Shown: piece after piece, positions 21,397-61,954 of the stretch
How the letters are laid out: each line of letters starts with the position of its first letter
Numbering within the stretch: position 1 is the first letter of the stretch
Assembly (NCBI GenBank): GCA_000165345.1
Contig: CM000430.1
Span: forward strand, 64,001 to 128,000
Direction of reading: 5' to 3'
DNA length: 64,000 nucleotides
Notes under the pieces: generated by a model
What the model saw: the letters and a program-made list of their open reading frames with translations, nothing else
The model's database searches: none
What the model was told of the DNA's origin: nothing
Made by a program: the position numbers and the translations under genes

Positions 21397-21432
21397 GCGT
21401 CACGTCTACTGCCCGTGCATGCAGGTAAAATA
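21397..21432. promoter_or_regulatory. Composite ACGT box (GCGTCACGTC) plus TGCATGCAGGTAAAAT (AP2-type TGCATGCA box), ~360-395 bp upstream of ARO.
   Basis: The 16-mer TGCATGCAGGTAAAAT recurs exactly at 46085..46100, upstream of Hop2. Confidence 0.5.
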
Positions 21433-38582: not shown

Positions 38583-38658
38583 AATTCCCGCCCATTTCTA
38601 TGCATGCATGGATTTTACAACTTACGTGTCAATTGACACGTAATTTGCATGCAAAAAT
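38583..38658. promoter_or_regulatory. Dense cis-element cluster. E2F-like TTCCCGCCC (38586..38594), TGCATGCATG (38601..38610), a perfect 22-bp palindrome TTACGTGTCAATTGACACGTAA (38622..38643) and TTTGCATGCAAAAA (38645..38658).
   Basis: Seen directly in the sequence. The ACGTGT + TGCATGCA pairing recurs at 42490..42518, 46040..46100 and 21397..21432. Confidence 0.5.
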
Positions 38659-38734
38659 TATTAATTTATATTGAAAGAGAAGGAGAAAGGGAGGAAAAAA
38701 AGAGAGGAGGGAACAGAAAAAGACATAGTAGGAC

Positions 38735-42003: not shown

Positions 42004-42489
42004 CTTTAATACTTGAAAAAAATTGGATATAAATATTGAAAAAAAAATTTCTAAATCTTCTTTATTTAATGTTTAAAAAAAATTGATTTATTTATATTAG
42101 TATTTATTTTATAGCTTCAATTGTCTTTATACCTTCTTCAGTCAATATTGAAACTATAAATATTATCACGATGATAAATAGTATTAATAATATTTTTATT
42201 GATTATTACTTGCAATAAAATATATATATATATATTATCAACTATATTTAATACAATAATTAAAAGTTATTATTATTCTCTTGAACAACCTTCAATTATT
42301 GTTATATATCTGAAAATTGAATTATATTTAAAATAAAAATAAAAATATTTTTATTAAAAATAAAATTCAAATTAATATACAAAAAATAAAAAAAGTAAAT
42401 TTTGTTATCTATTGTCCTCCTCATTATCTTTGGAAATTATTGATTCTTTTTATTACACGAATTTATTGTCCACATTAATATTATGATTA

Positions 42490-42518
42490 TTGCATGCATG
42501 CAATTTTACACGTGTTGT
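42490..42518. promoter_or_regulatory. TTGCATGCATGCAA palindrome plus TTTTACACGTGTTG (ACGTG box), ~490 bp upstream of the Tyr/Pro-repeat gene.
   Basis: Near-identical arrangement to 38601..38630 (TGCATGCATG-GATTTTACAACTTACGTGTC). Confidence 0.5.
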
Positions 42519-42721
42519 ATAAATCTTAATACCGGTATCAAATTAATGATGATATATATACGTAATAAATTACTTAATAATAAAATAATTCGTAATTATT
42601 ACGAATTAATTATTTATTAAAATTATTAATTATTACGTAATTATTATGTAATATATGTATATATATATTTTTTAATAATTAATATTAAAGGAAAAAAATA
42701 TTAAAATAATATTTAAAGGGC

Positions 42722-44149
42722 TTAACTAAATTTAATAGTAGAAAACTCTTTCTCAAAGCTATCAAATCTTTTTATAGCTTTTGATCTATTCAAATTTACA
42801 ATATCCATTGGATTATCATTTGAATATTCAACAAATCCACTCAAACCAGTAATATTCTCAAAATCTGTAAACTTTAAAACAGTATCTAAAAATTCACTCT
42901 CTGATTTAAGTAATTCATTTATAAAAGAAGGTATTGAATATCCAACTTTTGAACCTAATTTGCTTATTAATGGTATAATGTTTTCCTCACAACCTATTAA
43001 TTTATTTATAAAATCTTCAGGATCATTGATTATTCTCATCATCTGAAAATGATGTAAAATCTTATCTTTTTTTTCTTTTGATGCTAACTTTATATTAAAT
43101 ACTACACTTTCCTCTAATATATTGACTAAGTCATACCAGAAATCTTGCTCTTCCATCGGATCATTAAAAACCAATACTATTACTGTATTTTCATCAAAAT
43201 TTAATCCATTCTTTCCATCAATATTTTGAATAAATTTCATGATTTCCCTGCTTGGACGACCTACTTCCATATATTCAATATTATTTATCTTTATCATTAT
43301 ATTATATATCTCAATATGTTTCAAATATACTTGATGGGATATTATCATCTTATATTTAACATTTGCAATACTATTATTCTCTTTTTTAAGTCCTGCATTT
43401 ATTCTCATTTTTTCTTCTTCCCTTTTTTCTTTCTCTCTTTTGCTATTATATATATATTTTTTATAACTCACTATTCTTCCTTCCTCATAACAATCAAATA
43501 ACCAATCTAAATTTACTATTGTTTGGATATTATTTTTTTCTTTAACTTTATCAATAATTTCTCCTTCAAATTCTTCATTATTACAAATAAGTGCCAACTT
43601 TGTAACACTTGCTTTTAGTGGAACTTTGACCAAGTCATTATCATCATTACTTTCATTTTCATTTTTATTGTCATCATCAAATATTACTCTTGCTCCCATT
43701 TGCGTTTCTACAAATGAAACTAAAATACCAATATCATCCTTCTTACGTATATATTTTGGGCTCTTTTCTCTATTATTAAATCCTCCTATTGTTTTACTAT
43801 AACCTATAATATAAATCTGAAACCCTTTCAAAATATTATATTTAAAATTGCCATTTGGTCTAAAAAAAGGATGCCATTCTAATGAATAATTCCATTCGTC
43901 ATTCACTGATAACCATATCCAAAATGGAGTTCTTAATTTCTGATAATCTATACTTGTATGCCTATATCTATATCCTTTTGAATAATTACATATTAAATAA
44001 TCAACATCATCATCCATAATCTCACTATTTAATTCCAAAACTGTTCCCCCATTATTCTCAATATATTTTTTCCTTATCAGATTATTTTCATCATTTTCTT
44101 CAAATCCACTCAGTAGAAACCTCTTATTATTCCATATTTCTGAATTCAT
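42722..44149 (-). CDS. Tandem-BRCT-domain protein (475 aa).
   Basis: ATG at 44149. The first BRCT is KRFLLSGFEENDENNLIRKKYIENNGGTVLELNSEIMDDDVDYLICNY...LRTPFWIWLSVNDEW. The second is GFQIYIIGYSKT...ASVTKLALICNNEEFEGEIIDKVKEKNNIQTIVNLDWLFDC. The C-terminal half is helical. Confidence 0.65.
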   Translation of the reverse strand: MNSEIWNNKRFLLSGFEENDENNLIRKKYIENNGGTVLELNSEIMDDDVDYLICNYSKGYRYRHTSIDYQKLRTPFWIWLSVNDEWNYSLEWHPFFRPNGNFKYNILKGFQIYIIGYSKTIGGFNNREKSPKYIRKKDDIGILVSFVETQMGARVIFDDDNKNENESNDDNDLVKVPLKASVTKLALICNNEEFEGEIIDKVKEKNNIQTIVNLDWLFDCYEEGRIVSYKKYIYNSKREKEKREEEKMRINAGLKKENNSIANVKYKMIISHQVYLKHIEIYNIMIKINNIEYMEVGRPSREIMKFIQNIDGKNGLNFDENTVIVLVFNDPMEEQDFWYDLVNILEESVVFNIKLASKEKKDKILHHFQMMRIINDPEDFINKLIGCEENIIPLISKLGSKVGYSIPSFINELLKSESEFLDTVLKFTDFENITGLSGFVEYSNDNPMDIVNLNRSKAIKRFDSFEKEFSTIKFS

Positions 44150-44453
44150 TTTATTATTAATATAAAAATTATTTGTTATTACTCACGCAATAAACAAAAT
44201 AAAAACTTTTTATATCTGAAATATAATCATTTATTATCTGAATATAAATTCGCTAATTTAAATGCATACAATACTGCAAAAAAAATTGAACTCATTTACT
44301 TTCTTATTTATTATTAGAACTTTAAATACAATAAATGTACGTAATTCTTGATTTTTTATTCTCAAACTTATAATATTCTTGGCAGTAAACTAATAGTTAT
44401 TTTTATTATTATATTGTTATTTCCCAATATTACCAATTACATTATTTTTATTT

Positions 44454-44463
44454 GGGCGCCAAT
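44454..44463. promoter_or_regulatory. E2F-like GGGCGCCAAT site between the BRCT gene start and the Hop2 3' end.
   Basis: GC motif in AT-rich DNA, ~300 bp upstream of the BRCT gene ATG. Confidence 0.4.
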
Positions 44464-44515
44464 GATTTGTGTGTGTGGGGCGAGTTATTATTAATAATGG
44501 TTATATAATGATTAC

Positions 44516-45879
44516 TTAAACCATCTCAATTCCTATTTCTTCCATCAAATCTGAAGCCTAAAAATTAATTACATATTTATAATGATTTTATTCAAGTAAA
44601 ATTATTGATCATAATCCACTTGAATTAAAAACAACTTACCTTCCTTTCCATAGATTCTGAAAAAGTGTCCACTGCAGATTTACATGCAGATTTGAGCTTC
44701 TTTAACTTTGCCTGAAATTCAATAAATGATAAATTTTAAAATTAATATTAAAAAAATAACTTACCTGCTTTTTTAACAAGCTATTCTTTAACTCTTTTAA
44801 TTCATTAACTGGAATAATCTCACAATCGTCATCTAACATTTTTTCCTTTCTTGAAATCTCCTCTTTAAGTGATTTATTCTTTAAAATGCAAATAAAAATA
44901 ATTAAAGATAACATTTTAGAAAAGAATTAATGCGTTATAATATTTTATATATCAAATTTTTAAATTTATATTATAAACTTACCTTAAGATTTTCTTGCAT
45001 TATTTTCTCTTCTAATTCGTCAATAGTTAATGGAACACTTATATTTCTTGTTTCTTGTTTAAGTTGTTTAAGCCTCACTTCCAAATCATTCAATTCTGAC
45101 TCGCAAACAGAAATACTTTTATCCAAAGCTTCCATTTCATCCTTGTTTAATTCTTTACAGTCACTTTGGTCTACTAAATATACTTTTTGTTTTCCATACT
45201 CCTTGCATATAAACTTCCCCTCGACAGCAAGACGTTCCATTTCATCAGTTACTTGCTTCTTTGAGTATACATTATGCAAATTATCAACCACATTTTGTAC
45301 TGAATATGGACGATTCTGCTCTTTCATATAGTTAAATATTGCCTCTCCTGCATCTCCTGCTGCTGATCCTCCCCCTGAATTTGCAACATTCCTCTTTGTC
45401 AAATTCTTTGGAGCAGACAGTTTCTTTTTCTTTGCCGGCTTTGTACTTTTATCTTCATCATCAGATTCTAATTCATCTTCCACTGAACTTTCTTTAGATG
45501 ATTGTTTTTTTGGTTTTGCAGGTTTTGAGTTAATAGACTCCCCCCCTTTTTTCTTTGTTGTACTTTTTTTGCCTTTTTTACCCTTTTCAAATTCTTCTTC
45601 TTCTAAATCCAAGTCATTTTCATCATCTTCATCATCACTATCTTCGTCTCCTTCATCTATAAAATCCATTTCCTCATCAAAATCACTCTCAAAATCATCC
45701 AATTCATCATCTTCATCATCAAAATCTGTGTATTTTACAACTTTTCTAGAATTTCTTGATGGTCTAACTTGAGATTTACTTTCCATATTATCATCTTCCA
45801 TTTTACTCTGTTGTGTTTCATCCAATCCTGTTCCTTCTTCTTCCATATTATTACCTTCTTCTTTGCTTCTTTTTACCAT
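44516..45879 (-). CDS. HOP2: Hop2/TBPIP meiotic homologous-pairing protein with a long acidic/lysine-rich N-terminal extension. Four exons: join(~44516..44557, ~44641..44710, ~44764..44877, ~44983..45879).
   Basis: ATG at 45879. Winged helix ..EAIFNYMKEQNRPYSVQNVVDNLHNVYSKKQVTDEMERLAVEGKFICKEYGKQKVYLVDQSD aligns with human HOP2 (YLQEQNRPYSAQDV...EGKIKEKTYGKQKIYFADQ). The track ORF reads through a GTAAGT donor after ..QENLK. Downstream exons NKSLKEEISRKEKMLDDDCEIIPVNELKELKNSLLKKQ | AKLKKLKSACKSAVDTFSESMERK | ASDLMEEIGIEMV* are each flanked by GTAAGT...(T)nAG introns of ~55-95 nt. The C-terminal EEIGIE matches the HOP2 tail FFEEVGIETDED. Confidence 0.65.
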
Positions 45880-46039
45880 TTTTTCTTGAATTTTTTTATT
45901 TTAATAAACAACTTATTATCTTAATTTAAATTTACTTTTAAATTTATAAATTCATTCATTCACCCTCATTTTAAATTTTTTTTATAATTTATTCCAACTT
46001 TATTTCATATTATTTATTAACTAATCTGCACTGATGCCT

Positions 46040-46100
46040 CTTACGTGTTAATTTTTGCCCCTCTTGCAATTCCACATGCAAATTTGCATGCAGGTAAAAT
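46040..46100. promoter_or_regulatory. TTACGTGTTAATTTTTG plus CATGCAAATTTGCATGCAGGTAAAAT module ~160-220 bp upstream of Hop2.
   Basis: The same 16-mer TGCATGCAGGTAAAAT occurs at 21417..21432. The ACGTGT half matches the 38622 palindrome arm. Confidence 0.5.
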
Positions 46101-46328
46101 AAAATCATATACCGGTAATTTTGCGGATATATGGATAAATAAATTTAAAAATATTTTGGTAAAATTAAATGAATTATTAAACTGAAAAAACCTTATTAAA
46201 AATTTATAATAAAAGCTAAACTAGAAGAAATAATCAAATCTAAATATATTAAACAAATAGAATGCTTTTTATATAGATTAGTTTCACTCTTTAAGAAACT
46301 GTCTATAAAGAAATTCAATTGTTCATAC

Positions 46329-49981: not shown

Positions 49982-51700
49982 TTAGGTAGCAAGCATTGCT
50001 TTATTTTCGGGAATATTTTCAGAATCTTTGGTTGGTATTGTGAGATTATAAATCTGATAAATTTCTCTGGAATCAATAATTGCCACAGCAGCAAGAGTAC
50101 AGATTGTAGCTACCCCACAAGTAAGCATTAATTTCCAGTAAAGTTTATAAACAATAGAATTATATTCTCTATTTTCATACTTTGCGAGCCTGATAATAGA
50201 ATCAATAACTATAATCAAGAATGATTGAATAACAAGAATCCCAAATTTCCACCCTCCTTGATAAGGTTGAAGAGCTTCTTTACTAGGCCAATAAATAAGC
50301 ATAATTCCATAAATTGAAATAGTTAAAGAAATTATTAGAATTATATTATAAAGAAAGGCCTTAGATGGATGAATAACATTTAGTACCGAAACAAAAATAT
50401 TGATTGGAAGAAGTTGTATCATTAATATATAGCTTACAATGACAATTTTTGGTTGAAAATAAGTTTCTGTACTGGTTGGAATCATAAATGGAGGAACCTT
50501 CCAAACCTGATAAGGGCCTGTTCTCCTTATAGCTGTAACAATTTGTTCTGATCCTCCAAAGTATTCAACAAAAAGATCCCAAAGCCATATATAGCATATA
50601 CTTTGATAAGTAGATTGTATTACATTAAACATTCCATATCCAATTGGAGCAATACACGAGAGGAATTGCATAAGTACAGTAATTGGGAAACTCAAAAATA
50701 TATATAAATATAGACTCACAATTTTTACAGGAAAGACAGTATTTGTAATATTTCTGACCTGTTCTCCACCTTTTCTAAGCTTGCGATATTTTCGAATAGA
50801 AAATCCAATAACCATAATTAAGCTAATAGTAATAAAAATCAGTGCAACTTTAACTTCTTGAAGTCCGTCTTTATTAAATGCTGTTTTAATATCCGGAAAT
50901 TTAGAGTCCAACTCTGATTCTATTAGAGAAAACTTTGTATTTTCTACTGATCTTCTTGAATCTAAGTTAGATCCTATTCCATTTAATTCCACTTGGCTTG
51001 ATACTTGTCCAACTTTACCAACCTGAATTTTTTGTGGAGATATCTTTTGACTATTAGATTTTTGTGAATCCATTTGGGTTTGGGATGGTTTTGAAGAAGG
51101 TGTTGATGAAGATGGCTGAGATGAAGAATTCCGAGGTGGAGGAGCTGGTTGGGATGGAGACTGCTGTGGAGGAGACTGTTTTGGGGGAGACTGCTGCGAA
51201 GAGGACTGCTGCGAAGAGGACTGCTGCGAAGAGGATTGCTGAGGTGGAGGAGCTGGTTGGGATGAAGACTGCTTAGGTGGGGACTGCTGAGAAGAAGGCA
51301 TTGATGGAGCACTGGATGTCTGGCTCTGAGTGTTCCCTCCTTCTTTCGGCACTGAAGGAACTTGTATAACTTCTTTCGAATTTGGAGTTCCAGATCGTTC
51401 GTTTACACTAACTGAAACTATTGGAATATTAATTGGTGCGCTATCCTTGGATAAACCTGGCCCTAGTGTAGGAACTGGAGCAGGAGTAGGTTTAGGTGCA
51501 GGAGTAGGTGCAGGAGCAGGAATGGGTGCAGGAGCAGGAGTAGGCGCAGGCGTAGGAGCAGGAGTAGGCGCAGGAGTAGGCGCAGGAGTAGGCGCAGGAG
51601 TAGGCGCAGGAGCAGGAGCAGGAGCAGCCTGATTTGCGCTCGTGTTTGGAGCGGTGAGAGTTTGAGATGCGTCACTCTTATTGGGAGCCTCTCTAACCAT
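49982..51700 (-). CDS. Seven-transmembrane membrane protein with a long N-terminal Pro/Ala/Thr (PAPT) mucin-like repeat and a Ser/Gln-rich region. No N-terminal signal peptide is seen.
   Basis: ATG at 51700. N-terminus MVREAPNKSD... Then (PAPT)n. Then QQSSSQQSSS repeats. Then seven hydrophobic helices (VKVALIFITISLIMVIGFSI ... LMLTCGVATICTLAAVAII). Confidence 0.55.
   Translation of the reverse strand: MVREAPNKSDASQTLTAPNTSANQAAPAPAPAPTPAPTPAPTPAPTPAPTPAPTPAPAPIPAPAPTPAPKPTPAPVPTLGPGLSKDSAPINIPIVSVSVNERSGTPNSKEVIQVPSVPKEGGNTQSQTSSAPSMPSSQQSPPKQSSSQPAPPPQQSSSQQSSSQQSSSQQSPPKQSPPQQSPSQPAPPPRNSSSQPSSSTPSSKPSQTQMDSQKSNSQKISPQKIQVGKVGQVSSQVELNGIGSNLDSRRSVENTKFSLIESELDSKFPDIKTAFNKDGLQEVKVALIFITISLIMVIGFSIRKYRKLRKGGEQVRNITNTVFPVKIVSLYLYIFLSFPITVLMQFLSCIAPIGYGMFNVIQSTYQSICYIWLWDLFVEYFGGSEQIVTAIRRTGPYQVWKVPPFMIPTSTETYFQPKIVIVSYILMIQLLPINIFVSVLNVIHPSKAFLYNIILIISLTISIYGIMLIYWPSKEALQPYQGGWKFGILVIQSFLIIVIDSIIRLAKYENREYNSIVYKLYWKLMLTCGVATICTLAAVAIIDSREIYQIYNLTIPTKDSENIPENKAMLAT
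51470..51630. repeat. Coding 12-nt minisatellite (GCAGGAGTAGGC)n encoding (PAPT)n. A second 18-nt repeat (CTGCTGCGAAGAGGACTG)n at ~51150-51260 encodes QQSSSQ repeats.
   Basis: Tandem near-perfect units are visible in the sequence. Confidence 0.7.
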
Positions 51701-53594: not shown

Positions 53595-54077
53595 TATTTT
53601 TAAATATTATATTTGATAATATATGGGGAATGCCAGCCTAATAAAAAAAACTGATTTATTGAATCAATGAAAGATAGCTGTTGAACAAACTAATTTTATA
53701 ACCGTCAACACTTTTAAATATACTTTAGTTACTGATAAAAAAAAAATTAGTTTGGTGAGATTTACTCATGAACATTTTGTAAAATGTCTTTGTTCCTTGA
53801 ACTCTTTATAAATCATAAGAAATGGTTTGACTTTATTTAAACTTTAAATTCTCATCTGAATATTTCAACTGTCTATGATATCACATCTATCTAATCAATT
53901 AATATTTCCAATACTGAAAAAAATGTTGGCGCCAAATTTCCAATAAATATTTAGAAGATTACGGAAACAAAACAAAAGCAAATCAAAAACAGAATTATTG
54001 CTGTAATTTAATGGTATGATACAATTAAAAGAGTTCTAACTGCTTCTGGAGTTGAATTATAATAGGAGGAGGCTGTG

Positions 54078-57000
54078 ATGTATAGCTTGGAAGCAGACCT
54101 AAAGAACAAAAGTGGGCTAATCAAAAAAAACATGGGAAAAGAAGGTCAATTTGAAGCGAAATTAAGGCCTAGCTGCCCAAATATAGAAGATGAATTAAGA
54201 GCAATTTGTATACCATGCAAGAACAGTAGTCTTAATTATATTAAGGTAATGTGTGAAAAGGCCTTGCTAAGTTTTAGACATTATAGAGATGTAGTATATA
54301 AGACGGATTATGATGAGAATGGTGAAAGATTTAAACAATTTCCTGTTACTGATATATGTTCAGTTTGTAGAGAGGCCATAATAGCATCAACAAAGAACTC
54401 AGATTCAATTCAATTATCAATATTAGGTATGAACTGTATACAACAAATACTAATACCAGGGTTACTAGATACTTCTCACAAAATAACATTATTAGCAGTG
54501 CTTAACGAAGTCACAATTAAAGTTTCTACAACTATTAAAATTAAATCTAAGCAAACTTCAAGTAATTACCATAGTAATCACTCAAGTTCAAACAATGATA
54601 AAGAACAAGTACTGCTCAAAGTTATACAAACTGTACTATTATTTCTGTCTCCAGAAATACTTGAATTTAATGAAGCTATGATCACACTAATTGTTAGCAT
54701 AGTTTCGACTCTATTTAACTTATCAGGCTACTATCAATTAATTCAGATGTCACAACTTGCACTCAGACAGTTAGTAAATATTTCATTAGATTATATTGAT
54801 TCAAACACAGCTATCGAAGAAGATAATAGGGAAGTTTTAGAAGTTGTTCCTCTCTTATTAATTAAAGATATATCAGTAATGATAGATAAGAATATTGTAG
54901 AAAATGTCAAATTAGTTTCAAATAATAAAAGTTCAAAAGATAATTTAACACCACTTTCCTTATTAAAAGGAGGGATAACTATTCCATCGGAAATATGTTT
55001 GGACTTATGGTATGAAATTCTTGATAAGAATATATCTAATAGAAGATCCTTATTGGAAAACAATGAAGACTTAAGAAGCCTAATTCATAATGTACTATTT
55101 CCAACTTTAACAAAATGTATACAAAATGCATGTTCAGATTTAAATCCAAAAATGTCTCAAAATATCCACGAATTTGTTATGTTTGCAAGATTTATTAGAC
55201 TGTTTATAAGGATTTTAGAATTTAACTCGAGTAAGAAACTACAAGGTCCGTTTATTAAGGATTGTATTTGTAATTCCCTAATGAGCTTCATTCAAGCAAT
55301 TTCTGATGGAAATTACTCAAATATTCCAAGCTGGTCACTGCAATGCATTCTTGAAATGTTGAGTGAATTGGTTCAAAACTCAGATATATTGATTATAATT
55401 GGAAATTATAATGTAAAAGTACAAAATAAAAAGAAGGAAGCAGATGAAGAACCAAAAATGACTAACATCCTAGAACTTATTATTTCAACAATCAATCAAA
55501 TTCTAGTTTCTTTAAATGATCAACTTGATATTCTTCATTCAGCTGAAAACACTTTAAATTTATCGGTACCGTCATTTCTAAATGAGAAGATTTCTCTTCC
55601 TTCAATTCTTTTACCTCAACATAACAATACCAGAATTGAATGTGGTTACTTCATTATTAGTTCGTCTAAAAAAGCCTCCGAAAAAAGCATGAGACTAATT
55701 GATATTATTATGGAAGATGATCGTATTTATCATATTTCAAAATATAATTTTGGCGGGAACCTGGCAAATTTGGGGGGCGGCGCACATTTGCATGCAGGCA
55801 ATATGCAAAGTTTGTCAAATTTATCATCAGTTGTATTAATATCTCTAAAACCAATAGAAATATCGCTTCTAGTTTTTGATATTATTTTGAACATTTCAAC
55901 ATGCTTAAATAAAATTTATATGAACCAAATAAATGGTGATAGAGAAAAAACGATAGAATTTGAGAAATTAGTCTTCAATATTTGGGATCAATTTTATATA
56001 TTAATAAAGCAATGCATGGATTACTACCTTTTGAGATATTATGTATATAGAATTATTACTTTCCTATTTATGATCTCAAATTTACCAGAATTTAAAGGGA
56101 AATTGAGCAATATTTTGGAGTTAATTTTTGAAGCATTACAGAAATATTATAAGAATAATCAAATTTTAGAATCTAGAATTCTCAGTGATACAATTATGTT
56201 GGAAAAATTATTCTCAATTTATAAATGTTTTCTATCTATTTCGTATCAATTCAGCGAATGTTTGGATGAAGTTTCTTGGCAATTGTTATTTAGATATATG
56301 GAGTATATAGATCGTATATTGGACATAGGTCTGGGGCCAATGGTAAAATCTAGTGAAATAAAATCTAAATCTACGATAGATGTTGGAGATATAGAAGAAC
56401 TTGATCAAAGCTTATTGAGCCTGAAATCTGAACATTATTCATCAATTGAAAATGGGGAGTCTACTGAGATGAACAATATAAAGGATAAAGACGAAAAGGT
56501 ACGAGACGGACAAATAATTAAAACTCTTATGGCAGAATCAACTATTTTAAGAGCATCTCATCAAGTATTTCTAAAAGATCATATCAAGAATATTTCAGAA
56601 AATACTATGAATTGTGTGATTAAAGGTATTTACAAAGAACTAAGTTATAACATGTACAAAGAAAACCTGGATATTCAAGTTTTTGACTATATGCTTAAAC
56701 AATTGAGCTCTATTATTCAATCAATATACGATAAAATGAGCTATAATCTGTTCATTCCAATATGGAATGACAAAATTATTCCTCTTTTATTGGAAACTAT
56801 CAAGCAAAACAATTATTGTCACACCGGTATTGCATGCGCGCAAAACCAAGATACATGCGATTTGCAAAATTGCATGCACACTAACAATGATTATCCACAT
56901 AAAAAAAATAATGACGTGGAGCTAAATAAAAATAAGAAAATAATCAGAAATAATGTTGAAAATGTTGAAATGTTTAATAGTGTAATGAATTTTTTATCAT

Positions 57001-60000
57001 CAACAATAACAACCATTTTTCAATATGTAGATGAAGATAATTCAATATTGATGGAGAATAATGTTCAGACAAGCCTTTTGAATCCTTATTTAATCTTGAC
57101 TGGTTCATTTCCAATATATAATACTTTGTTATTGCGCTCATTATATTCCATTATGTGTTCAACAATACCAAAACTTGACGACTCTACATGGATATTAATT
57201 AATGTATTGATTAACAATATAATTCAAGAAAGATATTGTAGATATATCAAATACCTCAAGTATGAAAATTCTGAAAGTAATGAAAATATTTTTATTAATG
57301 GTTCATTATCGTTTTTGGAATCATCAACTACTGAAGGTTTAAATTGTGAAAACAATCAAATTGATAGTATAAATATTGATACAGATAATGATATTGAATT
57401 GCTTCAAGCACTATTTTCATTGATAGAGTATATTAGTAATGAATCAGAAATACGTTTTTTAGGAAATACAAATAAGATATCGTCATCTTGGAATCTACTG
57501 ATTGAATCTATTGCCGTATTTGGTCGCATAAATATTTCCATAGAAAACATGGCATTTCAAGCTGTGAGTTTACTTTGGAAATTAACAGATTTAATTGGAG
57601 CATCTCTCTCTAAAAATTCTCAGGAAGATATTGGAAATGAATCAGAAAAGGAATCTAATCAAATTTTGGTCTTTGACCAAAGAAATGTTAAGATTAATAT
57701 GAATAAGGTTAACAAAGTTTATTATTCTGATTATACTAGCATTGATATTATATGGTTGAATATTATACTTCAGTTGGAGGACTTATGTAAGGATCCACGT
57801 CAAGAAATAAGGAATTGTTCACTTAGAAGCTTATTTTCTGCATTAACAACGCATTGTAAATACATTAAGAATCAGCTACTGAAATCAATTATTGTAAGGA
57901 TACTTGAGAACGTTTTAACAGTTAGTATTGAACAGTACAACAACTCGTACAAAGAAACCAATTTTGAGAATTTACAAAGCTTTGATTCTATTTCAAAAGA
58001 TAACTGTGAAAATAAAGAAACTGCATCATTATCTTTATTAACGAAGGATTCTGTTTATTTAAATTACAATTCAATGAATTCATCTTTGGAGTTTGAAAAG
58101 ACTATTCCAGTTCCGCAAAATTATGACTCTAATTTGAATAAGGTTTGTAAAAAAGATGATTTACCGTCGTTATCTACGAGTTTTATAAGAAATTCTCAAC
58201 AAAATCAGCTTTGGGAAGGAACACTAGCTATTTCTATTGATGGAGCTTTAAGAGTAATTAAGGAATTATCCCAGAACAATGCACTGAGTGCACAAGAATC
58301 TCAGAATATATGCTATGAGTGTACAATGTTTCTATACAAAATTATATCTTCTTTGCTATCTTTTAACAATCAAGTCTATGAAAATTCTCTTGGTTTTGAA
58401 AAACATCACTCTATTATATATACAAAAGATATACAAATCACCTCAATTAAAACTTTGTATGAATTACTTGTTATTTCTATGAAAATTGGTAATAAACAAC
58501 TATGGAATTCAGGTTTTAATATTTACAAAGAAATTATTGATCGGATTATTATACAAAGTACTGAAACTTTGAAAAAATTACAAAGAGCTGAAGAATTTAT
58601 TCATAATCCAACTCGCGAGACCTGCAAAGATGATTCAATTTATAAGTTATATAATAGCTATGTTCAAAAGTTAATCAAGTTCTATTTATCTGATAAGTTA
58701 GCAGAATCTTTACTTCAGTCAGTTGTTGACTTACTTATTTTAATCAAAAATGAAGAAAATATGTCAAAATATATCATTTTTGATGAATCTTTTACTCAAT
58801 TGACAATATTATTGGATTTAATTATTTCAATCATTACTTCTACTGATACTTTTATACATCATACAGTACCATTATCCAATTTAAACTATCCAGAATTACC
58901 AGATAACTTTCAAAATAAATTTGATGAAATCACTACAAAGCAATTCATTCATCAAAGAAATAAACAAGGATTATTTCGTAATTTTTGCGAGTATTATAAA
59001 AATCAATATGAAAAAAATAATGATCATGATCAAAGCTTATCTCTAAAACCATTATTATGCTATCCTATATGGGGCAGAGACAAGGAAGATTCTACTTCAT
59101 TGCTTTTTACTCCAAAATTTGTTAACTTTGAAAAAGATCATCAAGAAGCTGCTATTGTTAATTCATGTAAAGATTCTAATCATCATGGAAGAAGTCTAAA
59201 TCGCCTGATATATATTGATTGTTATAACAACAGTGATTTTATACATAGCAATTGTTTTAAAAAAGTTGGAGATATTTCACTTTTGAAAGTATTCTATCAG
59301 AAAAGAAATAATCAATCAGATTATCAACTTGAAGAGTCTCGAGATTATAATATGGTTTATTTACTTAGAAATATTAATAATTTCGATATGTTTAGACCTG
59401 AAGCTAATTATTGTTATTATTTAGAATCCAAACAAAGTGGCTACAAAGCTATTAATCATACAATCAATCCAGAAAAAAGTCATGATACTGGTACCAAATC
59501 ATACTTATGTTCTATCAAAAATAACAATGATTATCTTTCATCCTCTATTAATGGTGAAATTAGATTTATAACAACCATACAAAATATTGGAATGGAGGCA
59601 TTACAATTTTATATGATGAGCTTATTATCATTTGATAAAGTTGATATTAGTAATTTGAAAGAAATCTCTCATCAAAATTTTTTAATACCATTAGTAATTA
59701 AAAAGCTTTTGGATACTTTGGTTATACATAGGGATTTATTTCTTGATACTAATAAAATTGGAATTTCTAGTAAAATCATATCATTACTGGTTGGATTTAA
59801 TCGAAATATTATTTTAAAAAATATGGAAATTCTTCAGTTATTAAATATTAATCAAATTCATTCAATAATTCAAATGATTATAATTTTACCATATATTTTT
59901 GAAAAGTTATTATTAATTATAGAATTAGATCAAGAAAGAATATATGGAATTTGGATGGTAGCAAAAGAAGCTATATTAGTTATTATACATGATTGGATAT

Positions 60001-61094
60001 CATTTATAAGGTTCTTAAAGATCGAATTTGAAAAAATTGATAAAAATTATTCGAATTCTATTAAAAATGATTTAAATCAAATTATTTTGGACAATATTTG
60101 GCCATTATTTATTGATATTATTGCAAATATGATCAAGGAAGAACATGGATTTGGACTTAAAGTTGTTTCAACTAATATATTCAACAAAAATTCACAAAAA
60201 ATTAATAATTATATTGAAAACTATTATTTATATTTTGATATACTATTAGTTAATATTGCTATGGATTTTATTTTTAAATTAAATGAATTTAATAGAAAAG
60301 ATGATATGATTGAAGATCTAGAGATTCTTGAATTACCTTATCAATATTACAAAACTATTATAAGTTATTTTGACGATTTTATTAATGATAATAAATTTAA
60401 AGATGGATTTGAATTAAGAAATAAATGTTATTTAGAAGAATATAAGAGTTTTAATAGTGCAGAAAATACTAATTTTGGAGTATTCAATAGAAATGGTAGT
60501 AATAATAATATGACACAAAATAATCATCAAACTTTGAATATTAATTATCAAACATTGAAGATATATATAATCGAAAAATTATTTGTTTTGTACGATCAGT
60601 TGAATATTAAATTAAGTACAATAAATAGAATGATATTAAAATTAACAATAGAACAAGATGAAAATCAATTGAATCTAGTGAGTTTAAAAGTCAAGGATTT
60701 GATTATTTGTATTGAAGAATTGGGAGACATATTAAATAGAATGACAAGTAATATGTTTAAAAGTTTTTCTATGGAAGATTTACAAAGTGGATTAAGGCCA
60801 ATGCCACATTTAAAAATTGAAGAAATGCAATCTTTATTAGTTATGATTGAGAAACATTATAAAGCATTGAGAAGATTTGAAGAAGAGAATATGGATGAAA
60901 CTAATGAGATACAAATTGAGATTTTGAAGATGAGAAAGAGATGTTTTGGGAATTATATAGAAAATGTATTACCAGAATTAATAGAATGTGTAACATGTAA
61001 AGATCAAAGTATTCGTCAAAGATTGAAGATTATTTTATCTATTTTATCAAAGGATATATCAAAAGATTATAAATCATTATTAGTCCCATATTAA
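54078..61094 (+). CDS. Very large (2338 aa) helical-repeat (HEAT/ARM-like) hypothetical protein.
   Basis: First ATG is at 54078; the track's 54075 is a GTG. A 7-kb open frame in AT-rich DNA. Leu/Ile/Asn-rich amphipathic helix pairs throughout. No confidently recognisable family. Two internal GC islands carry promoter-type motifs. Confidence 0.55.
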   Translation: MYSLEADLKNKSGLIKKNMGKEGQFEAKLRPSCPNIEDELRAICIPCKNSSLNYIKVMCEKALLSFRHYRDVVYKTDYDENGERFKQFPVTDICSVCREAIIASTKNSDSIQLSILGMNCIQQILIPGLLDTSHKITLLAVLNEVTIKVSTTIKIKSKQTSSNYHSNHSSSNNDKEQVLLKVIQTVLLFLSPEILEFNEAMITLIVSIVSTLFNLSGYYQLIQMSQLALRQLVNISLDYIDSNTAIEEDNREVLEVVPLLLIKDISVMIDKNIVENVKLVSNNKSSKDNLTPLSLLKGGITIPSEICLDLWYEILDKNISNRRSLLENNEDLRSLIHNVLFPTLTKCIQNACSDLNPKMSQNIHEFVMFARFIRLFIRILEFNSSKKLQGPFIKDCICNSLMSFIQAISDGNYSNIPSWSLQCILEMLSELVQNSDILIIIGNYNVKVQNKKKEADEEPKMTNILELIISTINQILVSLNDQLDILHSAENTLNLSVPSFLNEKISLPSILLPQHNNTRIECGYFIISSSKKASEKSMRLIDIIMEDDRIYHISKYNFGGNLANLGGGAHLHAGNMQSLSNLSSVVLISLKPIEISLLVFDIILNISTCLNKIYMNQINGDREKTIEFEKLVFNIWDQFYILIKQCMDYYLLRYYVYRIITFLFMISNLPEFKGKLSNILELIFEALQKYYKNNQILESRILSDTIMLEKLFSIYKCFLSISYQFSECLDEVSWQLLFRYMEYIDRILDIGLGPMVKSSEIKSKSTIDVGDIEELDQSLLSLKSEHYSSIENGESTEMNNIKDKDEKVRDGQIIKTLMAESTILRASHQVFLKDHIKNISENTMNCVIKGIYKELSYNMYKENLDIQVFDYMLKQLSSIIQSIYDKMSYNLFIPIWNDKIIPLLLETIKQNNYCHTGIACAQNQDTCDLQNCMHTNNDYPHKKNNDVELNKNKKIIRNNVENVEMFNSVMNFLSSTITTIFQYVDEDNSILMENNVQTSLLNPYLILTGSFPIYNTLLLRSLYSIMCSTIPKLDDSTWILINVLINNIIQERYCRYIKYLKYENSESNENIFINGSLSFLESSTTEGLNCENNQIDSINIDTDNDIELLQALFSLIEYISNESEIRFLGNTNKISSSWNLLIESIAVFGRINISIENMAFQAVSLLWKLTDLIGASLSKNSQEDIGNESEKESNQILVFDQRNVKINMNKVNKVYYSDYTSIDIIWLNIILQLEDLCKDPRQEIRNCSLRSLFSALTTHCKYIKNQLLKSIIVRILENVLTVSIEQYNNSYKETNFENLQSFDSISKDNCENKETASLSLLTKDSVYLNYNSMNSSLEFEKTIPVPQNYDSNLNKVCKKDDLPSLSTSFIRNSQQNQLWEGTLAISIDGALRVIKELSQNNALSAQESQNICYECTMFLYKIISSLLSFNNQVYENSLGFEKHHSIIYTKDIQITSIKTLYELLVISMKIGNKQLWNSGFNIYKEIIDRIIIQSTETLKKLQRAEEFIHNPTRETCKDDSIYKLYNSYVQKLIKFYLSDKLAESLLQSVVDLLILIKNEENMSKYIIFDESFTQLTILLDLIISIITSTDTFIHHTVPLSNLNYPELPDNFQNKFDEITTKQFIHQRNKQGLFRNFCEYYKNQYEKNNDHDQSLSLKPLLCYPIWGRDKEDSTSLLFTPKFVNFEKDHQEAAIVNSCKDSNHHGRSLNRLIYIDCYNNSDFIHSNCFKKVGDISLLKVFYQKRNNQSDYQLEESRDYNMVYLLRNINNFDMFRPEANYCYYLESKQSGYKAINHTINPEKSHDTGTKSYLCSIKNNNDYLSSSINGEIRFITTIQNIGMEALQFYMMSLLSFDKVDISNLKEISHQNFLIPLVIKKLLDTLVIHRDLFLDTNKIGISSKIISLLVGFNRNIILKNMEILQLLNINQIHSIIQMIIILPYIFEKLLLIIELDQERIYGIWMVAKEAILVIIHDWISFIRFLKIEFEKIDKNYSNSIKNDLNQIILDNIWPLFIDIIANMIKEEHGFGLKVVSTNIFNKNSQKINNYIENYYLYFDILLVNIAMDFIFKLNEFNRKDDMIEDLEILELPYQYYKTIISYFDDFINDNKFKDGFELRNKCYLEEYKSFNSAENTNFGVFNRNGSNNNMTQNNHQTLNINYQTLKIYIIEKLFVLYDQLNIKLSTINRMILKLTIEQDENQLNLVSLKVKDLIICIEELGDILNRMTSNMFKSFSMEDLQSGLRPMPHLKIEEMQSLLVMIEKHYKALRRFEEENMDETNEIQIEILKMRKRCFGNYIENVLPELIECVTCKDQSIRQRLKIILSILSKDISKDYKSLLVPY

Positions 61095-61309: not shown

Positions 61310-61954
61310 TTAAAAGGAAAAAAACGTACCCAACTCAGAAGGAAATAAATAATGTCTTATTTTCCCTTTAACATTGGATATATCAATATTATGATTATTG
61401 TTATTATTATTATTATTACTATTACTATCATCTTGAATAATATACTTGGCTCCTTTCTTTGAGGATTCAGTAAATTTGGCCCAAATAGCAAAATGATGAA
61501 ATACTATTGATCCAGCAATAGCAACATTTAATGATGCTGTTCCATTTCCATAAAGAGGAATATGAATTAAATAATCACAAAGTTTAATATATTTTTGACT
61601 AAGTCCAGTACCTTCATTACCAAGTAGAAAAGCCGTCGATCTTTTAAAAGGATGAGGATATATAGGCCTGGATTCATCACTTATTTCAATTCCAACAAGA
61701 TCCATTTCTTTTTCTTTAATAATATCAACAACTTGATCAATGTTTTCATACTGTGTTAAACTCAAATGTGGAAGAGTTCCTTTATTTCCAAAAGTCATCA
61801 ATTTCTTTTCTCCTACTACGAGTACTTCAGAGACTCCAAATCCGCATGCACTTCTAAGTAATGTTCCAAAGTTTTGTCTTTTAGAAATATTGGATAAAAC
61901 TAGATAAAATTCTGGGAGATCCTTAGGATCTTTATTTATTTTAATATCATCCAT
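61310..61954 (-). CDS. SpoU/TrmH-family (SPOUT) RNA 2'-O-ribose methyltransferase.
   Basis: ATG at 61954. LVLSNISKRQNFGTLLRSACGFGV (motif 1), LLGNEGTGLS (motif 2) and IPLYGNGTASLNVAIAGSIVFH (motif 3) match the SPOUT class. The 3' end may include a short intron (GTACGT near 61320) that is not modelled. Confidence 0.7.
   Translation of the reverse strand: MDDIKINKDPKDLPEFYLVLSNISKRQNFGTLLRSACGFGVSEVLVVGEKKLMTFGNKGTLPHLSLTQYENIDQVVDIIKEKEMDLVGIEISDESRPIYPHPFKRSTAFLLGNEGTGLSQKYIKLCDYLIHIPLYGNGTASLNVAIAGSIVFHHFAIWAKFTESSKKGAKYIIQDDSNSNNNNNNNNHNIDISNVKGKIRHYLFPSELGTFFSF

What the first reader, a model, noticed from the sequence alone, without database searches (positions are those of the whole stretch)
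55748..55798. Promoter-like GC island (canonical E2F site plus TGCATGCAGG) embedded inside the 7-kb coding frame of the giant HEAT-like gene
Inside the uninterrupted 2338-codon frame, the sequence TTTTGGCGGGAAC-CTGGCAAATTT-GGGGGGCGGCGCAC-ATTTGCATGCAGGC combines the exact E2F consensus with the TGCATGCAGG element. Elsewhere in the window this pairing appears only in intergenic promoters. A second cluster lies at 56831..56880 (TTGCATGCGCGCAAAA ... ATTTGCAAAATTGCATGCAC). They encode FGGNLANLGGGAHLHAG and HTGIACAQNQDTCDLQNCMH. The islands could be internal promoters for a shorter isoform or nested transcript, or evidence that two genes are fused in this frame. They could also be coincidental G/C-rich codons.
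Basis: seen in the sequence. Interest (0 to 1): 0.55.

Follow-up and report, generated by a model that had tools for sequence, protein, structure and literature searches.

The report
Conserved promoter-like modules inside a gene
Two short GC-rich stretches inside a 7-kb Cryptosporidium parvum gene (cgd2_560) carry the parasite's standard promoter motifs. At least one is conserved across seven species far beyond what the encoded protein requires, so they look like real regulatory DNA written into coding sequence, but no transcript from them has yet been shown.

Summary
The window is C. parvum chromosome 2. The giant ORF (54078..61094, +) is cgd2_560, a single gene in 10 Cryptosporidium species.

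- **Island 1 (55749-55798):** E2F site, G-box and TGCATGCAGG.
- **Island 2 (56823-56921):** ACCGGTAT, three (T)GCATGC-type sites, TCCACAT and GACGTGG.

These are the two most GC-rich 60-mers of the CDS. Both lie in indel-rich loops that a low-confidence AlphaFold model leaves as unmodelled coil.

Island 2 is the strongest synonymous-constraint region of the gene (best window P=1.5e-5; 0 of 500 permutations). It contains the longest nucleotide run invariant in seven species (CCGGTATTGCATG). All three GCATGC and the only TTGGCG of the CDS sit in the islands and are positionally retained, including in GC-rich C. canis.

The same four blocks co-occur at only two other places in the window. Both are upstream of strongly female-specific genes: cgd2_490 and HOP2/cgd2_510.

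Island 1 fails the synonymous test but shows motif retention with turnover.

Gene fusion, an overlapping ORF and a structured RNA are not supported.

Best reading: transcription-factor-binding modules embedded in coding DNA, probably an intragenic, sexual-stage promoter. Transcription itself is untested, and no published lncRNA was found there.

The parts
54078..61094 (+). Host gene cgd2_560 (EAK88885.1 / Q5CU26), a 2338-aa all-alpha 'Armadillo-like helical' protein. It is one continuous ORF.
   Evidence: ORF and translation. Exact match to C. parvum Iowa II. Orthologues in 10 species. cgd number assigned by synteny of Pfam hits with the annotated list. No Pfam or PDB relative.
55749..55759 (.). 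Island 1: E2F/DP-type site TTTGGCGGGAA, encoding F-G-G.
   Evidence: It is the only TTGGCG in the 7-kb CDS and is positionally kept in 5 of 6 other species, including C. canis. C. hominis and C. meleagridis weaken it to GGT but gain GGCGCC 25 nt downstream. The SRR31860986 species loses it but has GCGGCAA nearby.
55772..55777 (.). Island 1: G-box (G.GGGG) run.
   Evidence: Sequence. Present in 4 of 7 clade species. G-box motif and its AP2 binders: PMC3734150, PMC4117751.
55789..55798 (.). Island 1: TGCATGCAGG, matching the ApiAP2_1 / TGCATGYR motif.
   Evidence: GCATGC is kept in 4 of 6 other species. In C. ubiquitum the site is mutated, but CATGCAGG appears 24 nt upstream. C. canis and the SRR31860986 species carry a second GCATGCAG 12 nt downstream.
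56823..56838 (.). Island 2: ACCGGTAT abutting TGCATGCG. CCGGTATTGCATG (56824-56836) is invariant in seven species.
   Evidence: It is the longest invariant nucleotide run in the whole CDS; only 3 runs reach 11 nt or more. The same CCGGTA plus TGCATG pairing is conserved upstream of HOP2 in C. parvum, C. ubiquitum and C. canis.
56853..56858 (.). Island 2: middle (A/G)CATGC site.
   Evidence: CATGC is invariant in seven species. It reads GCATGC in C. meleagridis and C. canis.
56869..56879 (.). Island 2: TTGCATGCAC (TGCATGCA at 56871-56878).
   Evidence: GCATGC is kept in both GC-rich species. Only 1.6-2.4% of hexamers in the CDS are kept in both.
56892..56900 (.). Island 2: T(A/G)TCCACAT block.
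   Evidence: TCCACAT is invariant in seven species. The exact 9-mer TGTCCACAT occurs once elsewhere in the window, 16 nt from the intergenic TGCATGCATGCA at 42491.
56910..56921 (.). Island 2: AATGACGTGGAG block with an ACGTG core. It is built from codons that are non-preferred in C. parvum.
   Evidence: Invariant in 6 of 7 species; the chipmunk genotype has CTG. ACGTG lies within 100 nt of roughly half of the GCATGC loci in the window.
56784..56927 (.). Region of excess synonymous conservation centred on island 2.
   Evidence: Best 9-column window P=1.5e-5, second-best P=3.7e-4. None of 500 codon-matched permutations reached the best value.
42467..42538 (.). Comparator: intergenic module with TGTCCACAT, TGCATGCATGCA, CACGTG and ATACCGGTAT, upstream of cgd2_490 (- strand, ATG at 42003).
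   Evidence: cgd2_490 is listed as female specific, log2FC 7.19 (PMC11078545 S3).
46043..46116 (.). Comparator: intergenic module with ACGTG, TCCACAT, TGCATGCAGG and ACCGGTA, 165-240 nt upstream of HOP2/cgd2_510 (- strand, ATG at 45879).
   Evidence: HOP2 is listed as female specific, log2FC 5.24. The core is conserved in C. ubiquitum and C. canis.
53926..53936 (.). Control: the gene's own promoter E2F site, TTGGCGCCAAA, about 150 nt upstream of the ATG.
   Evidence: An E2F-type site (GGCGCC, or TTTGGCGC in C. muris) is kept about 142-215 nt upstream of the ATG in all 10 species.

Best explanation
The two islands are clusters of transcription-factor binding sites written into the coding DNA of cgd2_560. 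They sit in two loops where the protein appears to tolerate almost any sequence.

- **Island 1** combines three common C. parvum upstream motifs: E2F/DP, the G-box and ApiAP2 TGCATGCA.
- **Island 2** combines ACCGGTAT, three TGCATG-type sites, TCCACAT and an ACGTG core. In this window the same set sits upstream of two macrogamont-specific genes.

The most likely function is an intragenic promoter switched on in the sexual (female) stage by TGCATGYR-binding AP2 factors such as cgd2_3490. It would produce either a sense transcript for a C-terminal isoform or an antisense RNA over the 5' part of the gene.

**Shown here:**
- the motifs are present;
- they are rare in coding DNA;
- island 2 is conserved beyond codon constraint;
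- the motifs are retained or turned over across seven species;
- the same composite recurs at real upstream regions.

**Inferred, not shown:** factor binding, transcription initiation, its direction and its stage.
For: 1. Island 2 is the top synonymous-constraint region of the gene. Seven of nine amino-acid-invariant codons are nucleotide-invariant against 1.6 expected (P=1.2e-4). In the gene-wide scan the best window has P=1.5e-5, reached by 0 of 500 permutations.
2. The longest seven-species invariant run in 7 kb is CCGGTATTGCATG.
3. All 3 GCATGC and the single TTGGCG of the CDS lie in the islands. They are positionally kept in 4-5 of 6 species, although C. canis and the SRR31860986 species share only about 38% of codons at identical residues.
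4. The conserved third positions resist both AT pressure (TGC, GAC, GTG, GAG in C. parvum) and GC pressure (ATT, GCA, CCA, CAT in C. canis).
5. Island 1 shows motif turnover: lost sites are replaced nearby in C. ubiquitum, the C. hominis/C. meleagridis pair and the SRR31860986 species.
6. The homologous loops of C. ryanae, C. bovis and C. muris have none of these motifs.
7. The four island-2 blocks co-occur within 120 nt at 3 places in the window against 0.0014 expected. The other two places are upstream of cgd2_490 and HOP2, both strongly female specific.
8. CCGGTA plus tandem TGCATG is conserved in the HOP2 promoter of three species.
9. TGCATGYR is the motif enriched upstream of 65 macrogamont genes and is bound by cgd2_3490 and cgd1_3520 (PMC11078545). 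E2F/DP1 and BGCATGCAH are the top motifs within 100 bp upstream of C. parvum lncRNAs (PMC7840661).
10. A control GCATGC in the well-conserved SpoU coding sequence is not conserved.
11. Both islands fall in coil with pLDDT below 50 in the AlphaFold model.
12. cgd2_560 TPM rises from about 30 at 18-48 hpi to 76 and 101 at 72 hpi.
Against: - No transcript start was observed.
- Twelve antisense 24-mer probes along the gene matched none of the published lncRNA sequences. The held file is truncated and short RNAs could be missed.
- cgd2_560 is classed 'Unresolved', not female specific.
- Island 1 alone shows no excess synonymous conservation (1 of 9 against 1.7 expected). It is a C. parvum/C. hominis divergence hotspot (5 differences in 55 nt, P=0.007).
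- Part of island 2 encodes a conserved Cys/His pattern, C-x6/7-C-x4-C-x-H-x4-(C/Y)-P-H. That could carry protein-level constraint on first and second codon positions.
- The sub-blocks ACGTG, ACCGGT and TCCACAT were chosen after the first intergenic instance had been seen, so the co-occurrence statistic is partly post hoc.
- ATGACGT itself is not enriched in the window.
- The order and orientation of the blocks differ among the three instances, so the direction of any transcript cannot be inferred.
- The AlphaFold model is shallow (10 sequences, mean pLDDT 56). It also leaves a well-conserved segment at low confidence.
Confidence: 0.55

Rival explanations
1. Protein-level constraint plus chance. 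Island 2 encodes a small Cys/His-rich (zinc-knuckle-like) loop and island 1 a Gly-rich linker. The promoter-like words are then by-products of those residues and of codon choice.
For: The Cys and His positions of island 2, and FGG and HAG of island 1, are conserved as residues in the seven-species clade. Several invariant codons (ATT, GCA, CCA, CAT) are the preferred codons of C. parvum.
Against: - Synonymous sites should drift under this reading. Only 13.6% of amino-acid-invariant codons are nucleotide-invariant gene-wide, against 7 of 9 here.
- The GC-rich species prefer other codons for Ala, His, Ile and Pro, yet keep these ones.
- The same nucleotide blocks recur in non-coding DNA upstream of two genes.
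- Motif turnover in island 1 changes residues but keeps the motifs.
- The loops are modelled as coil with pLDDT below 50.
Confidence: 0.13
2. An RNA-level element. The conserved blocks act in the mRNA, as a local structure or as binding sites for an RNA-binding protein, for example for translational control in female stages.
For: The + strand of 56800-56940 folds somewhat better than shuffles (z=-2.3) and the - strand does not (z=-0.4). CATGC can pair with GCATG, and TCCAC with GTGGA. The comparator modules could lie in 5' UTRs.
Against: - There is no covariation support. The covariation term is +0.39, with 1 compensatory pair out of 20 and several broken pairs in the divergent species.
- Palindromic GCATGC copies pair trivially.
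- No Rfam match at E<=1.
- TGCATGCA and the G-box are DNA motifs bound by AP2 domains on protein-binding arrays (PMC4117751).
Confidence: 0.1
3. Real factor-binding DNA that does not start transcription. It would act as a distal enhancer or chromatin boundary for the flanking female-specific genes cgd2_550 and cgd2_580, or as a roadblock or nucleosome-organising site inside a very long gene.
For: Both neighbours are listed as female specific. No lncRNA was found over the gene. About 10% of the ATAC-seq peaks in sporozoites were not classed as upstream regulatory (888 of 984 were).
Against: Regulatory distances in this genome are short: the mean intergenic distance is 504 bp (PMC7840661). The islands lie 1.7-6 kb from the neighbouring starts, and each neighbour has its own motif-bearing upstream region.
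Confidence: 0.17
4. A relic of a gene fusion: the islands are former intergenic promoters now read through.
For: Promoter-type motifs lie deep inside a very long ORF.
Against: - The ORF is continuous and homologous along its length in all 10 species, including the gastric C. muris.
- The motif-bearing loops are specific to the intestinal clade, whereas the outgroups have other loop sequences at the same places.
- A relic would decay rather than show the strongest synonymous constraint in the gene.
Confidence: 0.03

Closest known systems
Upstream motifs of C. parvum lncRNAs (Li et al. 2021, PMC7840661)
   Same: E2F/DP1 and ApiAP2_1 (BGCATGCAH) are the two top motifs within 100 bp upstream of 396 mostly antisense lncRNAs. 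They co-occur upstream of 17 of them. Transcription units that overlap coding sequence are common in this compact genome.
   Different: No listed lncRNA was found over cgd2_560. Most of those lncRNAs lie at the 3' end of the sense gene and may use intergenic bidirectional promoters. The islands here are 1.7 and 2.7 kb inside the coding sequence, and their conservation at synonymous sites was not part of that study.
TGCATGYR macrogamont promoter motif / AP2 cgd2_3490 regulon (PMC11078545)
   Same: TGCATGCA (twice) and TGCATGCG match the motif. The island-2 composite is shared with the upstream regions of two genes listed there as female specific, cgd2_490 and cgd2_510.
   Different: That motif was defined on upstream regions with coding sequence removed. 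cgd2_560 itself is 'Unresolved'. The partner blocks ACCGGTAT, TCCACAT and ACGTG were not mentioned in the passages of that paper read here.
E2F-like, G-box and AP2_1 upstream motif families of C. parvum (PMC3734150, PMC4117751; ATAC-seq preprint 10.1101/2025.01.17.633476)
   Same: Island 1 carries one copy of each of these three motif families within 50 bp. E2F motifs dominate open chromatin upstream of genes.
   Different: All those analyses excluded coding sequence. Here the motifs are translated as part of a protein loop.
Dual-use codons / exonic transcription-factor sites and intragenic (cryptic) promoters in yeast and other eukaryotes (own knowledge; yeast examples PMC6886497, PMC2581627 listed)
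   Same: Coding DNA that also carries regulatory information, visible as local synonymous constraint. Internal promoters can give truncated isoforms or antisense RNA.
   Different: Here whole composite modules occupy lineage-specific loops. The protein sequence there looks like a passenger of the DNA code, rather than the regulatory sites being squeezed into a constrained protein.

Membership tests
Cryptosporidium E2F/DP upstream element | Sequence matches TTTSSCGC / GGCGGGAA / [C/G]GCGC[G/C]. | tested here: met
   TTTGGCGGGAA at 55749-55759. C. hominis and C. meleagridis add GGCGCC. Island 2 has no strict match.
Cryptosporidium E2F/DP upstream element | Lies in an intergenic upstream region, typically 100-200 nt before an ATG. 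| tested here: not met
   The site lies 1671 nt inside the CDS. The gene's own promoter site sits about 150 nt upstream of the ATG, and an equivalent site is kept in all 10 species.
Cryptosporidium E2F/DP upstream element | Bound by E2F/DP, or lies in open chromatin. | not testable with these tools
   ATAC-seq peak coordinates are not held.
ApiAP2_1 / TGCATGYR (macrogamont) element | Sequence matches [T/C]GCATGC[A/G] or TGCATG[T/C][G/A]. | tested here: met
   Matches at 55789, 56831 and 56871. Motif definitions.
ApiAP2_1 / TGCATGYR (macrogamont) element | Sits upstream of a gene with a female-specific expression profile. | tested here: inconclusive
   The host gene is 'Unresolved', with a 2.5-3-fold rise at 72 hpi. 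The two other instances of the composite are upstream of female-specific genes. Gene-level, unstranded TPM cannot reveal an internal transcript.
Promoter of an annotated C. parvum lncRNA (Li et al. 2021) | A catalogued lncRNA starts within about 100 nt of the motifs. | tested here: inconclusive
   Twelve antisense 24-mer probes spaced 240-1000 nt apart were not found in the lncRNA FASTA supplement. The stored file is truncated, and sense-overlapping RNAs were not catalogued.
Synonymous-constraint element in coding sequence (dual-use codons) | Synonymous sites are significantly more conserved than the gene's own baseline. | tested here: met
   Island 2: 7 of 9 against 1.6 expected; gene-wide best window P=1.5e-5, reached by 0 of 500 permutations. 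Island 1 on its own does not meet it (1 of 9 against 1.7 expected).
Structured RNA element | Conserved base pairs supported by compensatory changes, or a match to a known family. | tested here: not met
   Covariation term +0.39, with 1 of 20 pairs compensatory. No Rfam match at E<=1.
Overlapping (dual-coding) ORF | An alternative-frame ORF with a start codon is conserved across species. | tested here: not met
   The 52-aa +1-frame ORF at 56767-56925 is interrupted between its ATG and the island in C. hominis, C. meleagridis, the chipmunk genotype and the SRR31860986 species. The minus-frame ORFs are also broken.
Gene-fusion junction | The two halves exist as separate genes in some relatives. 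| tested here: not met
   A single continuous ORF in all 10 species retrieved.

The most novel reading that the evidence does not exclude
In the intestinal Cryptosporidium clade, a female-gamont-type promoter module (ACCGGTAT plus tandem TGCATGYR plus partner blocks) has been installed inside a disordered loop of a constitutively expressed 7-kb gene and kept there by selection on the DNA. The loop's amino acids (GIAC..C..CMH..PH..NDVE) would then be dictated by the regulatory code rather than by protein function. The module would fire in sexual stages to give a truncated C-terminal isoform or a silencing antisense RNA. It would be a first documented case of stage-specific intragenic promoters shaping protein sequence in an apicomplexan.
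Probability: 0.35. Interest if true: 0.65.

Novelty: new member of a known kind. Interest (0 to 1): 0.5.

Why it matters
Gene regulation in Cryptosporidium is poorly understood. The published motif studies consulted here deliberately excluded coding sequence, although it covers more than 70% of the genome.

This locus shows that promoter-grade motif clusters can sit deep inside a gene and be held by selection across species. It also points to a composite (ACCGGTAT with tandem TGCATGYR) shared with female-specific promoters.

If it is confirmed:
- It gives a concrete, testable example of stage-specific internal transcription.
- It gives a cheap way to find more cases: synonymous-constraint scans across the sequenced species.
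- It warns that synonymous recoding of Cryptosporidium genes for genetics may not be neutral.

Tried and rejected
- **Pfam and PDB profile searches** of the protein found nothing useful.
- **Rfam** on 55.4-57.4 kb gave no match.
- **RNAalifold** on island 2 found hairpins but no covariation, so an RNA structure was not adopted.
- **Overlapping ORFs.** Alternative-frame ORFs coincide with both islands but are not conserved, so dual coding was rejected.
- **Splice-site reading.** CCG|GTATTG and GCAG|GTAA could be read as 5' splice sites. I rejected this because the GT..AG span in island 2 is 95 nt (not a multiple of 3), C. parvum lacks the GT in island 1, and all indels across species are in frame.
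- **Locus-tag mapping.** I first assumed that NCBI tag CPATCC_000896 equals CryptoDB CPATCC_0008960. This is wrong: the sequences of the neighbouring lncRNAs Cp_lnc_340 and Cp_lnc_341 are not in the window. The gene was instead identified as cgd2_560 by synteny.
- **ATGACGT** as a longer form of the last block is not enriched (4 found against 2.2 expected).
- **ATAC-seq peak tables** of the 2025 preprint are not held.
- **Literature searches** for Cryptosporidium intragenic promoters or transcript starts found nothing specific.
Full report
**Identity of the locus**

The window is AT-rich (about 27-30% GC) and densely coding. The 2338-codon ORF at 54078..61094 (+) is identical to C. parvum Iowa II EAK88885.1 / Q5CU26, a 'large low complexity protein'.

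It has full-length orthologues in C. hominis (97% identity), C. meleagridis, chipmunk genotype I, C. ubiquitum, C. canis, an unnamed species assembled from SRR31860986, C. ryanae, C. bovis, C. serpentis and C. muris.

Pfam hits on the neighbouring ORFs (BRCT, TBPIP/Hop2, mitochondrial carrier, proteasome beta, Ost-alpha, PQ-loop, SpoU) match the annotated order cgd2_500 to cgd2_570 in a published expression table. [quoted passage not shown] It has no Pfam or PDB relative.

**Check of the observation**

The quoted sequences and peptides are present, within one base of the stated start.

- **Island 1** holds TTTGGCGGGAA (55749-55759), a G-box run GGGGGG (55772-55777) and TGCATGCAGG (55789-55798).
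- **Island 2** holds ACCGGTAT-TGCATGCG (56823-56838), CATGC (56854-56858), TGCATGCA (56871-56878), TCCACAT (56894-56900) and AATGACGTGGAG (56910-56921).

The motif counts exceed chance:

- TGCATGCA occurs 10 times in the window against 0.53 expected.
- The E2F pattern gives 10 strand-hits against 0.10 expected.
- 16 of 19 E2F-type sites are non-coding, although about 64% of the window is ORF.
- Pairs of an E2F site with (T)GCATG(C) occur otherwise only in two intergenic regions.

The islands are the two most GC-rich 60-mers of the CDS. One correction: island 2 has no strict E2F site.

**Conservation beyond codons**

I fetched the orthologous DNA for nine species and built a codon alignment. 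Seven species form a clade in which the two loops are alignable. In C. ryanae, C. bovis and C. muris the loops have different lengths, different sequences and none of the motifs.

The clade is deep enough to be informative. C. canis and the SRR31860986 species are about 63% identical to C. parvum in nucleotides. They have 47% GC against 27%, and share only 38% of codons at identical residues.

Against that background:

- The longest nucleotide run invariant in all seven species in the 7-kb CDS is CCGGTATTGCATG in island 2. Only three runs reach 11 nt.
- All three GCATGC hexamers and the single TTGGCG of the C. parvum CDS lie in the islands. They are positionally kept in 4-5 of the 6 other species.
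- Both island-2 GCATGC sites are kept in both GC-rich species. That is true of only 2.4% of all hexamers, and 1.6% of those in poorly conserved protein context.
- In island 2, 7 of 9 amino-acid-invariant degenerate codons are nucleotide-invariant, against 1.6 expected from codon-matched rates in the same gene (P=1.2e-4).
- A sliding scan puts the two best windows of the whole gene at 56847-56927 (P=1.5e-5) and 56784-56834 (P=3.7e-4). None of 500 codon-matched permutations reached the best value.
- The conserved third positions run against AT bias in C. parvum (TGC, GAC, GTG, GAG). They also run against GC bias in C. canis and the SRR31860986 species (ATT, GCA, CCA, CAT).
- As a control, a GCATGC in the strongly conserved RSACGFG segment of the neighbouring SpoU gene drifts normally. 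It reads GCATGT in two species and GCCTGC in C. canis.

**Island 1 behaves differently**

Island 1 shows no excess synonymous conservation (1 of 9 against 1.7 expected). It is a C. parvum/C. hominis divergence hotspot, with 5 differences in 55 nt against 2.2% for the gene (P=0.007).

Even so, every clade species keeps an E2F-type site and a TGCAT/GCATGC site in the loop, and lost sites are replaced close by:

- C. hominis and C. meleagridis weaken GGCGGG to GGCGGT but create GGCGCC 25 nt downstream.
- C. ubiquitum mutates CAT to CCT but has CATGCAGG 24 nt upstream.
- C. canis deletes 13 codons of spacer yet keeps TTTGGCGGG and has two CATGCAG copies.
- The SRR31860986 species loses TTTGGCGG but has GCGGCAA and two GCATGC.

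Retention with turnover is what selection on binding sites produces, not selection on residues.

**Other explanations tested**

- **Gene fusion.** The ORF is continuous in all species.
- **Overlapping ORF.** Alternative-frame ORFs coincide with both islands, as expected for GC-rich patches. Their start-to-island continuity is broken in several species.
- **RNA structure.** The + strand of island 2 folds modestly better than shuffles (z=-2.3). The hairpins are made of palindromic GCATGC copies and a 5-bp TCCAC/GTGGA stem, with no covariation support and broken pairs in the divergent species. Rfam finds nothing.
- **Protein constraint.** Island 2 encodes C-x6/7-C-x4-C-x-H-x4-(C/Y)-P-H, which may matter to the protein, but that cannot explain frozen third positions. 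An AlphaFold model of residues 470-1010 is helical repeats with both islands in coil at pLDDT below 50. The model is shallow and leaves one conserved segment at low confidence too.

**Link to real promoters**

The gene's own promoter is a useful positive control. An E2F-type site (GGCGCC, or TTTGGCGC in C. muris) lies about 142-215 nt upstream of the ATG in all 10 species.

Searching the window for the invariant blocks of island 2 gave an unexpected result. TGTCCACAT occurs exactly once elsewhere, 16 nt from the intergenic TGCATGCATGCA at 42491. That region also carries CACGTG and ATACCGGTAT.

A census then found a third place, 46043-46116, with ACGTG, TCCACAT, TGCATGCAGG and ACCGGTA. All four block types within 120 nt occur at 3 places against 0.0014 expected. 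None of 20,000 random placements gave 2 or more. Within non-coding DNA alone the figures are 2 observed against 0.0007 expected. The choice of sub-blocks was partly made after the first instance was seen, so the exact P value should not be leaned on.

The two intergenic instances lie upstream of cgd2_490 and cgd2_510 (HOP2, start confirmed). Both are listed as 'Female specific' (log2FC 7.19 and 5.24). Both are strongly reduced by macrogamont-differentiation inhibitors.

Aligning the HOP2 upstream region of C. parvum, C. ubiquitum and C. canis shows CCGGTA followed by CATGCA..TTGCATG(T/C)GG and a G-run conserved in all three. C. muris keeps a GCATGC cluster at about -90. So the 13-mer that is the most conserved stretch of the cgd2_560 coding sequence is the same pairing that is conserved in a genuine promoter.

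**What the literature says**

- E2F-like, G-box and TGCAT/GCATGCA are among the most over-represented C. parvum upstream motifs. cgd2_3490 binds [T/C]GCATGC[A/G], cgd8_810 binds the G-box, and cgd1_3520 binds both (PMC3734150, PMC4117751). Both studies excluded coding sequence.
- TGCATG(T/C)(G/A) is enriched upstream of 65 macrogamont genes, and cgd2_3490 is proposed as their regulator (PMC11078545).
- E2F motifs dominate sporozoite open chromatin, and 888 of 984 ATAC-seq peaks are upstream regulatory (10.1101/2025.01.17.633476).
- E2F/DP1 and BGCATGCAH are the top motifs within 100 bp upstream of 396 mostly antisense lncRNAs (PMC7840661).

**Most likely mechanism**

The islands are transcription-factor-binding modules embedded in coding DNA. 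By analogy with the two intergenic instances and with lncRNA promoters, they most probably start transcription inside cgd2_560, preferentially in sexual stages.

Gene-level TPM for cgd2_560 is flat at about 30 from 18 to 48 hpi and rises to 76 and 101 at 72 hpi. That is compatible with the idea but not specific to it.

The direction cannot be inferred:

- ACCGGTAT is the gene-distal block in both real promoters, which would predict sense transcription from island 2. The first in-frame ATG is at 56970.
- TCCACAT has the opposite orientation there, which would predict antisense.

**Evidence against**

- No transcript start has been seen.
- Twelve antisense probes found no catalogued lncRNA (the stored file is truncated).
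- The gene is classed 'Unresolved'.
- Island 1 lacks synonymous constraint.

My estimates are:

| Claim | Probability |
|---|---|
| Island 2 is a selected nucleotide-level element | about 0.85 |
| Both islands are DNA binding-site modules | about 0.65 |
| They act as an internal promoter | about 0.45 |

**Novelty**

Intragenic promoters, exonic transcription-factor sites and E2F/AP2-driven lncRNAs are known kinds. This is a new, well-supported instance in a genome where coding sequence has been left out of motif studies. It comes with a candidate composite (ACCGGTAT plus tandem TGCATGYR) tied to female-specific genes, so it is of moderate interest.

Noticed in passing
window 38585-38660: A dense promoter-like cluster: TTCCCGCC (the reverse complement of GGCGGGAA), ATGCATGCATGG, the palindrome TTACGTGTCAATTGACACGTAA and TTTGCATGCAAAA. 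It lies between the 3' ends of two convergent ORFs (34271-38350 + and 39000-40415 -). It is a candidate promoter for antisense or lncRNA transcription, in line with the reported 3'-end bias of C. parvum lncRNAs.
   Followed up: no
window 21416-21431 and 46085-46100: The identical 16-mer TGCATGCAGGTAAAAT occurs at two intergenic sites. Island 1 has TGCATGCAGGCAATAT, and C. meleagridis and chipmunk genotype I have TGCATGCAGGTAATA. This suggests a longer motif than TGCATGCA. CAGGTAA also resembles a 5' splice site.
   Followed up: partly
window 27028-27037 and 42529-42538: The 10-nt palindrome ATACCGGTAT occurs twice in intergenic DNA. Three of the 6 ACCGGT in the window lie within 100 nt of a GCATGC. 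No binding factor for it is known to me.
   Followed up: partly
L010 / L011 and window 45990-46000 (about 115 nt upstream of the HOP2 ATG): A second conserved block, TGGAATAAATTAT, lies in the HOP2 upstream region of C. parvum, C. ubiquitum and C. canis, closer to the ATG than the CCGGTA/TGCATG core.
   Followed up: no
window 55746-55800: Island 1 is a C. parvum / C. hominis divergence hotspot: 5 differences in 55 nt against 2.2% for the gene (P=0.007). The changes reshape the E2F-type sites, GGCGGG to GGCGGT and GGCGGCGCA to GGCGCCACA.
   Followed up: partly
window 35001-37000 (inside ORF 34271-38350) and 43001-46000: Extreme strand composition: GC skew of +0.69 to +0.74 at 35-37 kb, and -0.34 to -0.46 at 43-46 kb. 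This suggests low-complexity, strand-biased coding repeats.
   Followed up: no
window 51200-51700 (5' part of ORF 49982-51700, -; cgd2_540): This is the most GC-rich coding stretch of the window, with 60-mers up to 0.67 GC and the 1-kb bin at 0.43, far above the local 0.25-0.30.
   Followed up: no
window 56013-56018: TGCATG in the conserved KQCMDYY segment is kept in 5 of 6 clade species and also in C. ryanae. Protein constraint may suffice to explain it here, unlike in the islands.
   Followed up: partly
identifiers, not coordinates: NCBI locus tag CPATCC_000896 (this gene) is not CryptoDB CPATCC_0008960. The lncRNAs catalogued next to the latter (Cp_lnc_340, Cp_lnc_341) do not map to this window.
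   Followed up: yes
window 61766-61849 (5' part of the SpoU/cgd2_570 CDS, - strand): ATGTGGA and GCATGC lie 80 nt apart inside the first 190 nt of the coding sequence. The GCATGC is not conserved across species, so this pair looks like chance.
   Followed up: partly
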